DNA of 64,000 bases from a virus (IMGVR_UViG_3300033068_001957:96189-160188), one strand, 5' to 3'; positions 28,205 to 61,422 are shown, counted from the stretch's first letter. Notes: a model not told the origin generated them from the sequence alone. Program-made: numbers and translations.

Positions 28205-28625
28205 GTTAAATAATAACAAAACAATTTGACAATCTCTCAAATATACTCTAATATATCTCATGAACGAAAACCTCAAACATGCTCTAGACCTAATCGAATG
28301 GATTGAAAAATACTCTTTCGACTTTGGCGCTCAGACTCGCGCTCATCACGCCAAGGGTTTTATTGATGCGTTTATTCTTGAAACGAACGACAAAGAAGAT
28401 TTGCAGGCTGAATACGATTTAGATCATAAAGGCGCTTGACTCTCACGACAATCTGTTATATATTAATCACATGAACGAAGCAAAATACAAAGTCGTCAAA
28501 ATTGGCCGCAAATCCAACCGCCGCACAATTCTCGAAAAGAACTTAACAGAATCTGAAGCTCAGCGAGTAGTCGCACGTTATCCTGATTCGTCGCGGTCTA
28601 TGATTTGCTACTTTCGGCAGTAGTG

Positions 28626-28677: not shown

Positions 28678-28753
28678 GCCCCTTTACTCCAATGCAGAGA
28701 GCGGAATCTTAAAAATTCTGAATGTCCGAGGTCGTGTCTCGGAAGGGGTACCA
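28678..28753 (+). tRNA. tRNA-Leu(UAA), short variable arm
   Basis: Acceptor GCCCCTT/AAGGGGT-A-CCA; GGAAT-CT TAA AA-ATTCT; T-arm CCGAG-GTCGTGT-CTCGG. Confidence 0.8.
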
Positions 28754-28762
28754 ATTTCAAAT

Positions 28763-28842
28763 GCTCCTGTATTCCCTCCCGCTTCTAACGGGTAGAAAGG
28801 ATAATTGGATACATGTAGGATCATACCCTATCAGGAGCGCCA
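28763..28842 (+). tRNA. structurally rearranged tRNA-Arg(UCU)-like gene
   Basis: Perfect acceptor GCTCCTG/CAGGAGC-G-CCA; CCCG-CT TCT AA-CGGG; T-arm GTAGG-ATCATAC-CCTAT; no 5' D-arm, but D-loop-like AATTGGATA 3' of the anticodon arm. Confidence 0.7.
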
Positions 28843-28867: not shown

Positions 28868-29184
28868 GTATCGGTAGCTTAATAGTCAAAGCAGCGAACT
28901 CAAAATGGGTCGGTAGTAAGGAAACTTACTATTTGTAAGGTGTAAATTCGGTGAACGGTTAATTTATTGATCCACCTATAGAGAGGGTAATTATATCTCG
29001 AATCAATAAACTCCCAACGCCGAGCGAAATCCAGAAATGGAGACGTGTAGAGACTATAATCACCAGCCTTTAAAATGGCTAAGGCATAGTCCAGACTACA
29101 AACAATTCTTAGGAATTGGCGGTGAAAACCGTAGTGGTAGGCATAATTCGTTGATTGAGGGTGCGAATCCCTCCCGATACACTA
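28868..29184 (+). tRNA. tRNA(CAU) (elongator Met or Ile2), intron-containing; exons 28868-28900 and 29142-29181
   Basis: Spliced form: GTATCGG/CCGATAC acceptor, GCTT/AAGC D-arm, GCGAA-CT CAT AA-TTCGT, GAGGG-TGCGAAT-CCCTC; ends ACTA. Confidence 0.9.
28901..29141 (+). ncRNA. group I self-splicing intron (241 nt, no ORF)
   Basis: The 5' exon ends in U, paired to G in P1 (ACT|C-AAAAT-GGGT). P7 elements GTAGAGACTA (29047) and CATAGTCC (29085). Terminal omega-G at 29141. Confidence 0.9.
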
Positions 29185-60118: not shown

Positions 60119-61422
60119 TAGATCGACGAAAAGGAAACCCCTTCCTTTAGGTAGGGGAGGAATTTTCGCCTCCGAGTTGGGAAAGTTAAGCGTTGCATAC
60201 GTGTAACGTTATTATAACGTAAGCAATGCACAAAGTCAAGCGCAGATTTCGCTTTTATCCGTCAAAAGCTCAACAAGTTGAGCTTTCTAAGGTATTCGGA
60301 TGCACACGTTTTGTCTATAACGCTGCTCTCGCTTGGCGCAAGGCGGAGTTCGAGGCTGGACACAAGCCATCGTATAACAAAAGCTCTGCGTGGCTCACAT
60401 CTTTCAAACGCGAGCATGAATTTCTGAACGACGTTAGCTGCGTGCCATTGCAGCAGAGCTTGCGCTATTTGCAAGGCGCTTACCAACGCTTTTTCAAGCG
60501 TCAATCAGGCTTTCCAACGTTCAAGGCTCGCGATAACCGCCAGTCTTGCGAGTTCACAGAGCGGGCGTTTACCTATAAAAATAGCAAGCTTTCGCTTGCG
60601 AAGATTGGCGTCGTTGACGTTGTTTGGACGCTTGCGCTTCAATCAAAACCTACGACTGTTACTGTTATCAAAGAAGCAAGCGGCAAATACTTCGTGACGC
60701 TAACGCTGCTCGAAGCTGGCAACCAATTGCCAGCGTCAACCGCAAGCGTTGGCATTGACTTGGGCATTGAAACTTTCGCTACTCTTAGTGATGGCCGCAA
60801 GTTTAAAGCGCCCGCAAAGATTCGTAAGTTACGCAAAAAGCTCGCCGCCTTGCAGCGCAAACATTCGCGCCGAGTTAAGGGCTCCAAGCGTCGCGAGAAG
60901 GCTCGCGTCAAAGTCGCACGTCTGCACGAACACATCGCCAACGTGCGCAATGATTTTCTCCAAAAACTCTCAACTTCCATCGCTCGCGAGAACCAAACGA
61001 TTGCGCTGGAAGATTTGCATACGAAAGGCATGATGCGAAATCGCAAGTTAGCCCGCGCCATTGGCGAGCAAGGCTGGCGGCAATTCCGCGACATGCTCGC
61101 TTACAAATGCGAATGGGGTAATCGTCAACTGGAAATCGTGAGCCGCTGGCTTCCGAGTTCCAAGACGTGCTCTTGTTGCGGAGAAAAAACGATGCTGACG
61201 TTAAAAGACCGTTCTTGGAGTTGCGCTTGCGGCGCAACACATGATCGTGACGTTAACGCTGCGAAAAACATTTTGGCCGCTGGACTAGCGGCTTCTGCCC
61301 GTCGAGGCTCTGTAAGACCTGCGAGAACTTACGTTCTCAAGGCTAGGCCAGTGAAGCGGGAACCGCTTAGTTGCTAACGCAATTAGGAATCCCCGTCTCT
61401 TTTAGGGCGGGGAGGATGTCAA
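60119..61422 (+). mobile_element. complete tnpB-only IS200/IS605 element
   Basis: Left-end hairpin ~60125-60168; right-end hairpin CCCCGTC/GGCGGGG ending GATGTCAA; no target duplication; 5' flank TCAT. Confidence 0.9.
60226..61377 (+). CDS. tnpB: RNA-guided endonuclease TnpB
   Basis: FRFYP..FGCTRFVYN, GIDLG, ALEDL, SSKTCSCCG, HDRDVNAAKNI; D-E-D triad intact. Confidence 0.97.
   Translation: MHKVKRRFRFYPSKAQQVELSKVFGCTRFVYNAALAWRKAEFEAGHKPSYNKSSAWLTSFKREHEFLNDVSCVPLQQSLRYLQGAYQRFFKRQSGFPTFKARDNRQSCEFTERAFTYKNSKLSLAKIGVVDVVWTLALQSKPTTVTVIKEASGKYFVTLTLLEAGNQLPASTASVGIDLGIETFATLSDGRKFKAPAKIRKLRKKLAALQRKHSRRVKGSKRREKARVKVARLHEHIANVRNDFLQKLSTSIARENQTIALEDLHTKGMMRNRKLARAIGEQGWRQFRDMLAYKCEWGNRQLEIVSRWLPSSKTCSCCGEKTMLTLKDRSWSCACGATHDRDVNAAKNILAAGLAASARRGSVRPARTYVLKARPVKREPLSC

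What the first reader, a model, noticed from the sequence alone, without database searches (positions are those of the whole stretch)
28763..28842. tRNA-Arg(UCU)-like RNA with the D-loop relocated 3' of the anticodon arm
Seen: perfect 7-bp acceptor, G73-CCA, a canonical anticodon loop CT-TCT-AA and a T-arm. Only 8 nt (TATTCCCT) lie where the ~19-nt D-arm belongs, while 22 nt (TAGAAAGGATAATTGGATACAT) occupy the variable position. CCT can pair with AGG and GTAT(T)CC with GGATAC, so the D-stem equivalent would form between the 5' linker and the 3' insert, presenting AATTGGA. Known: AAUUGGAUA is a typical Arg D-loop containing G18G19 and the ArgRS identity base A20. Inference: a topologically rewired tRNA that could keep the L-shape and identity elements while escaping tRNA-targeting defences and standard tRNA finders. 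It sits between two normal-topology tRNAs, which suggests co-processing. Best candidate for an undescribed system in this window.
Basis: partly seen in the sequence, partly recalled or inferred. Interest (0 to 1): 0.85.

Follow-up and report, generated by a model that had tools for sequence, protein, structure and literature searches.

The report
Phage arginine tRNA with rewired D-arm
This 80-base phage gene is very probably a working arginine tRNA in which half of the D-arm lies after the anticodon arm instead of before it; well over a hundred phages share this non-cloverleaf layout, tRNA finders miss it, and I found no paper describing it.

Summary
Window 28763-28842 has a perfect 7-bp acceptor stem, G73-CCA, the loop CUUCUAA, a T-arm, 8 nt where the D-arm belongs and 22 nt in the variable position. 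ARAGORN and Rfam's tRNA model do not call it.

It is not a wreck. A pattern scan found at least 118 viral contigs with the same layout, about 2 expected by chance, plus cultured Streptomyces and Microbacterium phages. All stems covary, including a 3-bp helix (11-13 with 37-39) that spans the anticodon arm.

A model built only from other phages scores this gene at 81 bits, against 23.5 for the window's canonical tRNA-Lys. Pattern-selected members carry only arginine anticodons. In copies found without the pattern, the relocated GGA (A20) is kept with Arg anticodons and becomes GGU in two UAU copies.

Rewired genes almost never duplicate the anticodon of a canonical tRNA-Arg in the same cluster: 1 case observed, 13.2 expected. 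Here it is the phage's only tRNA-Arg, and AGA is its commonest Arg codon.

Best reading: a functional, host-charged tRNA-Arg(UCU) with a permuted core. Defence evasion is untested. This scan has met the family before on other DNA, and I found no publication on it.

The parts
28763..28842 (+). Whole gene: rewired tRNA-Arg(UCU), 77 nt plus encoded CCA
   Evidence: Family models R1 and R2 match 28763-28839 end to end at 83.7 and 81.2 bits. CCA read directly.
28763..28769 (+). Acceptor stem, 5' strand (positions 1-7)
   Evidence: 7 of 7 Watson-Crick pairs with 28832-28838. In the family, about 99% of cells are paired and 6 or 7 of the 7 pairs change on both sides.
28770..28772 (+). U8-A9-U10 connector. 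U8 and A9 are invariant in the family.
   Evidence: Alignment A3, where GUAU was fixed by the pattern. Copies found without the pattern keep U8 and A9. Equivalence to canonical U8 and A9 is inferred.
28773..28775 (+). D-stem-equivalent helix, 5' strand (U11 C12 C13). Topologically it corresponds to canonical 23-25.
   Evidence: Pairs with 28799-28801. More than 13 different complementary combinations occur across the family. 95.5% of cells are paired and all 3 pairs change on both sides.
28776..28777 (+). C14 (equivalent of position 26) and U15 (U.U with U31, equivalent of 27.43)
   Evidence: C14 was fixed by the pattern. Columns 15/31 are U.U in 44 of 103 rows and a standard pair in about 40.
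28778..28792 (+). Anticodon arm: 4-bp stem and loop CUUCUAA, anticodon UCU at 28784-28786
   Evidence: Read directly. The stem is 98.8-98.9% paired and all 4 pairs change on both sides.
28793..28798 (+). Linker UAGAAA from the anticodon stem to the helix 3' strand (equivalent of 43-45 plus 3 extra A)
   Evidence: NNGAAA is the commonest form. UAGAAA occurs in 11 of 103 and UUGAAA in 28 of 103.
28799..28801 (+). D-stem-equivalent helix, 3' strand (G37 G38 A39). Topologically it corresponds to canonical 10/11-13.
   Evidence: Covaries with 28773-28775.
28802..28814 (+). Relocated D-loop plus short variable segment, UAAUUGGAUACAU. Proposed equivalents: A14, A15, G18, G19, A20, A21 and U48.
   Evidence: UAA was not fixed by the pattern yet is invariant in 103 of 103. 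GGA is kept in 9 of 9 Arg copies found without the pattern. The motif matches the D-loops of canonical tRNA-Arg genes in the same loci. The residue-by-residue mapping is inferred.
28815..28831 (+). T-arm: 5-bp stem and loop AUCAUAC, with A54/U58 in place of the family's U54/A58
   Evidence: The stem is 99.4% paired in the family. Position 54 is U in 102 of 103 and position 58 is A in 102 of 103; this gene is the exception at both. The same AUCAU loop recurs in two diverged members, L160 and L161, at about 72 bits.
28832..28839 (+). Acceptor stem 3' strand and discriminator G73
   Evidence: Read directly. In the family the discriminator is G in 54, A in 38 and U in 11.
28678..28753 (+). Upstream neighbour: tRNA-Leu(UAA) with encoded CCA, 9 nt before the rewired gene
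   Evidence: ARAGORN; Rfam tRNA 29.7 bits.
28868..29181 (+). Downstream neighbour: tRNA(CAU), exons 28868-28900 and 29142-29181, split by a 241-nt group I intron
   Evidence: Rfam Intron_gpI 45 bits, E 5e-10, below its gathering score of 50. ARAGORN calls the joined exons a 73-nt tRNA-Met(cat).

Best explanation
The gene encodes a functional arginine tRNA that reads AGA. It is transcribed with its two tRNA neighbours. It is probably processed by the host's RNase P and 3' nucleases, charged by the host's ArgRS and used on the ribosome.

Its core is wired in a different order from the cloverleaf. The segment 'D-stem 5' strand plus D-loop' has swapped places with the segment 'D-stem 3' strand plus anticodon arm'. 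As a result, a 3-bp D-stem equivalent (11-13 with 37-39) encloses the anticodon arm. The D-loop motif UAA-N-GGA-Y-A then follows and can still reach the T-loop.

Shown here: the gene belongs to a large conserved phage family; the helices covary; anticodons are restricted to Arg; A20 tracks the Arg anticodon; the genes fill the isoacceptor slot that the cluster's canonical tRNA-Arg genes leave open.

Inferred: the L-shape is kept through U8.A14, A15.U48, G18.U55 and G19.C56 equivalents; the tRNA is charged through A20, C35 and U36; it decodes AGA. The layout could have arisen from a tandem duplication of the 10-43 region followed by loss of the outer copies, which is also inference.
For: 1. Family. 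Its non-C35 control gave 7 hits, 6 of them not family members, which implies about 2 chance hits. Of 103 distinct sequences, 98 have 7 of 7 acceptor pairs and 100 have 5 of 5 T-stem pairs.

2. Covariation. On a MAFFT alignment, 97.1% of cells are paired against 63.6% in shuffles and 47% or less when partners are slid; the covariation score is 0.838 against 0.207. On the model-fitted alignment the spanning helix is 95.5% paired and all 3 pairs change on both sides.

3. Leave-out test. Model R2, built without this gene, scores it at 81.2 bits. The window's canonical tRNA-Lys scores 23.5.

4. Identity. Anticodons are UCU 54, ACG 34, CCU 9 and UCG 6, although the pattern allowed any NCN. Copies found without the pattern keep GGA in 9 of 9 Arg cases and have GGU in 2 of 2 UAU cases. 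Canonical tRNA-Arg genes in the same loci have the same D-loop motif, with GGA in 49 of 51.

5. Decoding role. In 96 loci holding 803 ARAGORN tRNAs, a canonical tRNA-Arg with the same anticodon shares the locus in 1 case. Shuffling the anticodons gives 13.2 +/- 2.5, and none of 5000 shuffles was as low as 1.

6. This phage. The gene is its only tRNA-Arg. AGA is its commonest Arg codon at 31%. Two of the other tRNAs, Lys-UUU and Leu-UAA, also read A-ending codons.

7. This copy. All 19 pairs are intact and CCA is encoded. Its odd A54/U58 T-loop recurs in two diverged members whose stems are also intact. The phage encodes no ArgRS and no CCA-adding enzyme, so it must rely on the host for charging.
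Against: - There is no expression, processing or charging evidence.
- There is no 3D model, so the L-shape is inferred.
- RNAalifold run de novo on the MAFFT alignment predicts the acceptor, anticodon and T stems but not the 3-bp spanning helix. About a third of rows, from sub-types with other linker lengths, are misaligned there.
- The pattern fixed GUAU, C14, CU.C.AA, GGA and AUG..GG.UC, so conservation of those bases in the main set is circular. Only the 13 copies found without the pattern test it.
- Many loci are related, so the shuffle statistics overstate independence.
- This copy departs from the family consensus at three T-loop positions.
- The closest relative phage lacks the gene, so it is dispensable for that lineage.
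Confidence: 0.8

Rival explanations
1. It is a functional tRNA-Arg as above, and the rewiring is adaptive. It removes the D-arm hairpin that some host tRNA-targeting nuclease, modification enzyme or quality-control factor reads. The phage's Arg decoding then survives when host tRNA-Arg is attacked. This extends the best explanation rather than excluding it.
For: The layout is overwhelmingly viral. At least 116 true copies lie in viral contigs. Only 15 lie in 596 Gb of prokaryotic assemblies, and the two inspected, L142 and L149, sit in dense tRNA arrays. It persists across very different phages. Phage tRNAs that counter host tRNA nucleases are documented (PARIS, PMC11464382, listed).
Against: No nuclease or defence system is linked to it here. 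Canonical tRNA-Arg genes coexist with rewired ones in 35 of 97 cases, so the canonical form is not generally untenable in these phages. A single origin spread by gene transfer, with no selective advantage, fits the data equally well.
Confidence: 0.25
2. It is a tRNA-like decoy or regulator that is not used in translation, for example a sponge for an anticodon nuclease or for ArgRS.
For: The core is non-canonical and nothing shows charging. This copy's T-loop is unusual.
Against: A decoy need not keep the full acceptor and T minihelix, an encoded CCA, U33 and A37, and four different Arg anticodons. Nor need it avoid the anticodons of canonical tRNA-Arg genes in the same cluster, yet 1 case is seen against 13.2 expected. 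The anticodon here matches the phage's commonest Arg codon.
Confidence: 0.08
3. It is a decayed or rearranged tRNA pseudogene with no function.
For: Gene finders reject it. The closest relative phage lacks it.
Against: All 19 pairs are intact. It scores 81 bits against a model trained on other phages. Family-wide compensatory changes are seen. The nearest family members are only about 75% identical, and their stem differences are compensated.
Confidence: 0.02

Closest known systems
Canonical bacterial and phage tRNA-Arg (class I cloverleaf, Rfam RF00005), for example the ARAGORN-called tRNA-Arg genes in the same viral loci
   Same: 7-bp acceptor stem, discriminator A or G, often an encoded CCA, and a 5-bp T-stem with a UUCGA-type loop. 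The anticodon loop is CU-NCN-AA with Arg anticodons. The D-loop motif is A-A-Y-U-G-G-A-Y-A with A20. Overall length is 74-80 nt, and the genes lie in phage tRNA clusters.
   Different: There is no D hairpin 5' of the anticodon arm. The D-stem equivalent is 3 bp and encloses the anticodon arm. The D-loop motif lies 3' of the anticodon arm. The anticodon stem is usually 4 bp plus a U.U. RF00005 and ARAGORN do not detect the gene.
Metazoan mitochondrial D-armless tRNAs, such as mt-tRNA-Ser(AGY/UCU) (from my own knowledge; review PMC4394434, listed)
   Same: No D hairpin between the acceptor and anticodon stems. The anticodon branch is a longer continuous helix. Anticodon UCU occurs in some.
   Different: The mitochondrial forms are shortened, lack the G18-G19 elbow contacts, and serve reduced mitochondrial translation systems. 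This family keeps full length and a complete D-loop motif at a new position, and must work with bacterial machinery. ARAGORN's mitochondrial modes do not call it.
Permuted tRNA genes of Cyanidioschyzon merolae (from my own knowledge)
   Same: The order of tRNA segments along the gene differs from the cloverleaf order.
   Different: Those genes are circular permutations. The 3' half precedes the 5' half, and processing through a circular intermediate restores a normal cloverleaf. Here both acceptor strands are at the gene ends. The swap is internal, and at 77 nt nothing is left over for a processing step to rearrange.
Non-canonical bacterial and phage tRNAs with 8/4 or 9/3 acceptor/T branches (allo-tRNAs; PMC5389517)
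   Same: Natural departures from the standard cloverleaf found by mining genomes and metagenomes, some of them in phage tRNA clusters.
   Different: Those change helix lengths but keep the order of the four arms. That paper does not mention tRNA-Arg (0 occurrences of tRNAArg). Here the connectivity of the core is changed.

Membership tests
Canonical cloverleaf tRNA (Rfam RF00005) | 7-bp acceptor stem, discriminator, 3' CCA | tested here: met
   7 of 7 Watson-Crick pairs, G73 and encoded CCA.
Canonical cloverleaf tRNA (Rfam RF00005) | Anticodon arm with a 7-nt loop, U33 and a purine at 37 | tested here: met
   Loop CUUCUAA; the stem is 4 bp plus a U.U.
Canonical cloverleaf tRNA (Rfam RF00005) | T-arm: 5-bp stem and 7-nt loop with U54-U55-C56 and A58 | tested here: inconclusive
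   The stem is 5 of 5 and U55-C56 are present, but 54 is A and 58 is U. The same variant recurs in L160 and L161.
Canonical cloverleaf tRNA (Rfam RF00005) | D-arm hairpin (10-25) between the acceptor and anticodon stems | tested here: not met
   Only 8 nt lie there and no hairpin is possible.
Canonical cloverleaf tRNA (Rfam RF00005) | Score at or above the Rfam gathering score (29 bits), or a call by ARAGORN | tested here: not met
   No RF00005 match at E <= 10. ARAGORN finds nothing in any mode tried.
   81.2 bits with R2, which excludes this gene. Canonical tRNAs score 32 bits or less.
   UCC pairs with GGA here. The helix covaries in the family.
   UAAUUGGAUACAU, an exact variant shared by 7 of 103 members.
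   UCU, the commonest in the family at 54 of 103.
Arginine-accepting tRNA (ArgRS substrate) | Identity elements A20, C35, U or G at 36 and A or G at 73 (established for bacterial ArgRS; from my own knowledge and review PMC9976931, listed) | tested here: inconclusive
   C35, U36 and G73 are present. An A follows the GG of the relocated loop. Whether ArgRS reads it as A20 was not tested, but it covaries with anticodon type in copies found without the pattern.
Arginine-accepting tRNA (ArgRS substrate) | Aminoacylation with arginine | not testable with these tools
   Needs an in vitro charging assay or tRNA sequencing of charged species.
Mitochondrial-type D-armless tRNA | Shortened tRNA with a D-replacement loop and no G18-G19 elbow motif, detectable by mitochondrial tRNA models | tested here: not met
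   Full length (77 nt), a GG motif is present, and ARAGORN -mt and -mtx find nothing.
Permuted tRNA gene (Cyanidioschyzon type) | The 3' half is encoded upstream of the 5' half, so the acceptor termini lie inside the gene | tested here: not met
   The acceptor 5' and 3' strands are at the two ends of the gene.
Class II tRNA with a long variable arm | The long variable region forms its own stem-loop, and a normal D-arm is present | tested here: not met
   In the family the 22-nt insert pairs with the 5' linker (covariation), not with itself. There is no D-arm.

The most novel reading that the evidence does not exclude
A whole lineage of bacterial-type tRNAs has left the universal cloverleaf topology, through an internal segment swap in the core, and still works with unmodified host ArgRS, EF-Tu, RNase P and ribosomes. 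Phages maintain the rewiring because it hides their tRNA-Arg from host factors that read the D-arm, such as tRNA-targeting immune nucleases or other enzymes.
Probability: 0.25. Interest if true: 0.9.

Novelty: new variant of a known kind. Interest (0 to 1): 0.8.

Why it matters
The cloverleaf order of arms is treated as universal for tRNAs that serve bacterial ribosomes. If these RNAs are charged and used in decoding, four things would follow.

1. The L-shaped core can be built with a different strand connectivity.
2. ArgRS can read A20 from a loop attached elsewhere in the chain.
3. Phage tRNA repertoires and codon-supply analyses are systematically incomplete, because ARAGORN called 2 of 97 such genes and most isolate genomes leave them unannotated or mislabel them.
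4. A natural scaffold may exist for engineering tRNAs that escape enzymes recognising the D-arm.

It also gives a concrete, testable candidate in the contest between phage tRNAs and host defences that target tRNA. Cultured carriers, the Streptomyces and Microbacterium phages, are available for that test.

Tried and rejected
- Exact 30-mer of the gene in viral contigs: no match, possibly because the window's own record is left out.
- blastn of the 651-bp cluster against cultured phages: no match. The 96-bp query then found the Samistivirus copies.
- Synteny through the DUF932 gene: one relative, G001. It has no tRNA cluster at that place and no family member anywhere, so there is no close orthologue to compare.
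- Minimum-free-energy fold of the single sequence: it gives a register U8-C12 with G37-A41 and a z-score of only -1.7. I rejected this register in favour of 11-13 with 37-39 because of covariation.
- RNAalifold de novo: it did not recover the 3-bp helix on the MAFFT alignment.
- ARAGORN in mitochondrial and low-threshold modes: nothing.
- tblastn of a 679-aa phage protein against cultured phages: no match, so the host and taxon remain unknown. PHROGs names only a large terminase subunit.
- Phage-encoded ArgRS or CCA-adding enzyme: none.
- Non-Arg members: a scan with position 35 not C gave one true member, with anticodon UAU.
- Literature: seven searches and four papers inspected, none describing this layout.

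Full report
**The observation.** It has a 7-bp Watson-Crick acceptor stem, G73 and an encoded CCA. The anticodon stem is 4 bp plus a U.U, with the loop CUUCUAA, and the T-stem is 5 bp. Only 8 nt lie between the acceptor and anticodon stems, and 22 nt between the anticodon and T stems. ARAGORN finds only tRNA-Lys(UUU) and tRNA-Leu(UAA) in the window. Its mitochondrial and relaxed modes also miss the gene. Rfam's tRNA model reports nothing there even at E <= 10. The single-sequence fold is unremarkable, with a z-score of -1.7.

**Context.** The window is the last 64 kb of a 160-kb IMG/VR virus record. It has 40% G+C and a large terminase subunit, but no close cultured relative.

The gene sits 9 nt after tRNA-Leu(UAA) at 28678-28753. 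It is 25 nt before a tRNA(CAU) whose exons (28868-28900 and 29142-29181) are split by a 241-nt group I intron. That intron scores 45 bits on Rfam Intron_gpI, below the gathering score of 50, and ARAGORN calls the joined exons tRNA-Met(cat). A sigma-70-like promoter match lies upstream at 28436-28464. The only relative found through a neighbouring gene, G001, lacks the cluster and has no family member.

**Homologues.** blastn of 96 nt hit seven Samistivirus records, five distinct Streptomyces phages. In Mildred21 the matching 76-nt gene is annotated tRNA-Phe(gaa); the other four distinct phages carry no tRNA annotation there. Further copies lie unannotated in TunaTartare, Sollertia, MulchMansion and Microbacterium phage A3Wally.

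The alignment shows the same layout throughout. Compensatory changes occur in the acceptor and anticodon stems and in a 3-bp helix between positions 11-13 and 37-39. That helix reads UCC/GGA here, CCG/CGG in Mildred21, CGC/GCG in Sollertia and ACC/GGU in A3Wally.

I then scanned viral contigs with a pattern that fixes only junction and loop bases. The same pattern with position 35 not C gave 7 hits, of which 6 are not family members, so about 2 chance hits are expected. In 596 Gb of prokaryotic assemblies the pattern hit 22 places, and 15 of those are true members by the covariance model. Most are on MAG contigs. The two inspected, L142 (Achromobacter anxifer) and L149, sit in dense tRNA arrays.

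**Structure.** Among 103 distinct sequences, 98 have 7 of 7 acceptor pairs and 100 have 5 of 5 T-stem pairs. In 83, all 3 pairs of the spanning helix form, using more than 13 different complementary triplets.

| Measure | Observed | Control |
|---|---|---|
| Cells paired, MAFFT alignment | 97.1% | 63.6% shuffled; 47% or less with partners slid |
| Covariation score, MAFFT alignment | 0.838 | 0.207 shuffled |
| Spanning helix paired, model-fitted alignment of 111 matches from other loci | 95.5% | - |

In that second alignment all three pairs of the spanning helix change on both sides. RNAalifold run de novo recovers the three long stems but not this short helix. Sub-types with other linker lengths are misaligned there.

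**This copy.** Model R2, built without it, matches it end to end at 81.2 bits (E 1e-18). The window's canonical tRNA-Lys scores 23.5. Across all loci, family members score 49-93 bits and canonical tRNAs 32 or less. Its nearest relatives in the set are only 74-77% identical, and their stem differences are compensated.

Its T-loop AUCAUAC is unusual. Position 54 is U and position 58 is A in 102 of 103 members, and this gene has A54 and U58. These are the two partners of the canonical U54.A58 pair, exchanged. A scan for that loop found two more full members in other viral contigs of about 190 kb, L160 and L161. Both score about 72 bits, carry anticodon CCU, and have different stems that are all intact. 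The variant is therefore a maintained sub-lineage trait, not decay.

**Identity and function.** Pattern-selected members carry UCU (54), ACG (34), CCU (9) or UCG (6), although any NCN was allowed. The pattern itself fixed GGA, so I looked at 13 further copies that the model found without the pattern, or through the non-C35 control scan. All 9 distinct copies with Arg anticodons keep GGA. The two UAU copies found without any pattern have GGU. The third UAU copy, L158, came from the control pattern that fixes GGA. Canonical tRNA-Arg genes in the same loci have the D-loop A-A-Y-U-G-G-A-Y-A, with GGA in 49 of 51. The relocated motif is therefore an Arg-type D-loop.

The 96 loci hold 803 ARAGORN tRNAs in 834 kb. 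ARAGORN calls only 2 of the 97 rewired genes, with wrong ends. A canonical tRNA-Arg with the same anticodon shares the locus in 1 case. Shuffling anticodons among loci gives 13.2 +/- 2.5, and none of 5000 shuffles was as low. The rewired gene thus fills an isoacceptor slot, as a decoding tRNA would.

In this phage it is the only tRNA-Arg. AGA is the commonest Arg codon (31%). The other tRNAs include Lys-UUU for AAA (67% of Lys codons) and Leu-UAA for UUA. The phage encodes no ArgRS and no CCA-adding enzyme.

**Proposed mechanism (inferred).** The layout maps onto the cloverleaf as follows.

| Rewired positions | Canonical equivalent |
|---|---|
| 10-13 | 22-25 |
| C14 | 26 |
| 15-31 | 27-43 |
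| 32-36 | 44-45 plus three A |
| 37-40 | 10-13 |
| A41, A42 | A14, A15 |
| G45, G46, A47 | G18, G19, A20 |
| A49 | A21 |
| U52 | U48 |

This preserves every invariant residue of the canonical core: U8, A9, A14, the R15.Y48 pair, G18, G19 and A21. It changes only which strands are joined. The acceptor and T minihelix, read by RNase P, EF-Tu and CCA enzymes, is untouched, as is the anticodon stem-loop. The host ArgRS would read A20, C35, U36 and G73. A tandem duplication of the 10-43 region followed by loss of the outer copies could produce such a swap.

**Novelty.** Seven searches of the open-access and bioRxiv library and four papers inspected turned up no description of this layout. Subscription journals were not covered.

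This scan has met the same family before on other genomes: e1-282655, e1-238319, e1-295098, e1-1890502, e1-1907949, e1-5341740, e1-5345453 and e1-5669152. I reached my reading before looking these up, and I re-tested it here.

- the anticodon-complementarity test;
- the link between A20 and the anticodon in copies found without the pattern;
- the A54/U58 sub-lineage.

**Verdict.** The gene is most likely a functional tRNA-Arg(UCU) with a permuted core (0.8). Defence evasion remains a hypothesis (about 0.25).

Noticed in passing
window 28868-29181: A tRNA(CAU) is split after U33 by a 241-nt group I intron (28901-29141) that has no ORF. Rfam Intron_gpI scores 45 bits, below its gathering score of 50. 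ARAGORN calls the joined exons tRNA-Met(cat). Its T-loop UGCGAAU has G at position 55 and its D-loop has a single G. Another first-stage note (e1-5689683) also flags it.
   Followed up: partly
window 28678-28753: The tRNA-Leu(UAA) is only 76 nt including CCA, so it lacks the long variable arm of class II tRNA-Leu. Its T-loop GUCGUGU has G54 and U58. It only just reaches the Rfam tRNA threshold (29.7 against 29 bits). Two of the three clustered tRNAs therefore have U58.
   Followed up: no
L160:4242-4318 (-) and L161:1951-2027 (-): Two rewired tRNA-Arg(CCU) genes in other viral contigs of about 190 kb share the A54/U58 T-loop (AUCAU..) of the window's gene. In L160 the gene sits beside canonical tRNA-Arg(UCU) and tRNA-Arg(ACG).
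   Followed up: partly
L158:1726-1802; L019:5506-5582; L107:2892-2967 (-): Three members of the rewired family carry anticodon UAU (Ile-type, one base from UCU). The two found without any pattern have GGU instead of GGA in the relocated D-loop and have A73, which suggests a switch of identity.
   Followed up: partly
L008 (Mildred21), L009 (TunaTartare), L011 (A3Wally): An HNH endonuclease or endonuclease VII gene lies directly upstream of the rewired tRNA gene in several actinophages. Homing endonucleases may help spread it. There is none beside the window's copy.
   Followed up: no
L058, L076, L102, L067 (ARAGORN tRNA-Arg calls): Another odd class of tRNA-Arg calls has CC or AC at positions 8-9 and a very short 3-bp D-arm that starts right after the acceptor stem.
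   Followed up: no
window 60226-61377: A 383-aa ORF has HTH_OrfB_IS605, OrfB_IS605 and Cas12f1-like TNB domains. This is a TnpB-like transposon-associated nuclease inside the phage genome.
   Followed up: no
L142 (Achromobacter anxifer LMG 26857, NZ_CAHLAR010000005): An isolate genome carries a rewired tRNA-Arg inside an 8-kb array of 15 ARAGORN tRNAs plus a tmRNA-like call. This is presumably a prophage or phage-derived island.
   Followed up: partly
MF155946.1 91367-91442: Mildred21's rewired gene, with loop CUUCGAA (anticodon UCG), is deposited as tRNA-Phe(gaa), probably a mislabel. The same locus has no tRNA annotation in the four other distinct Samistivirus phages hit.
   Followed up: partly
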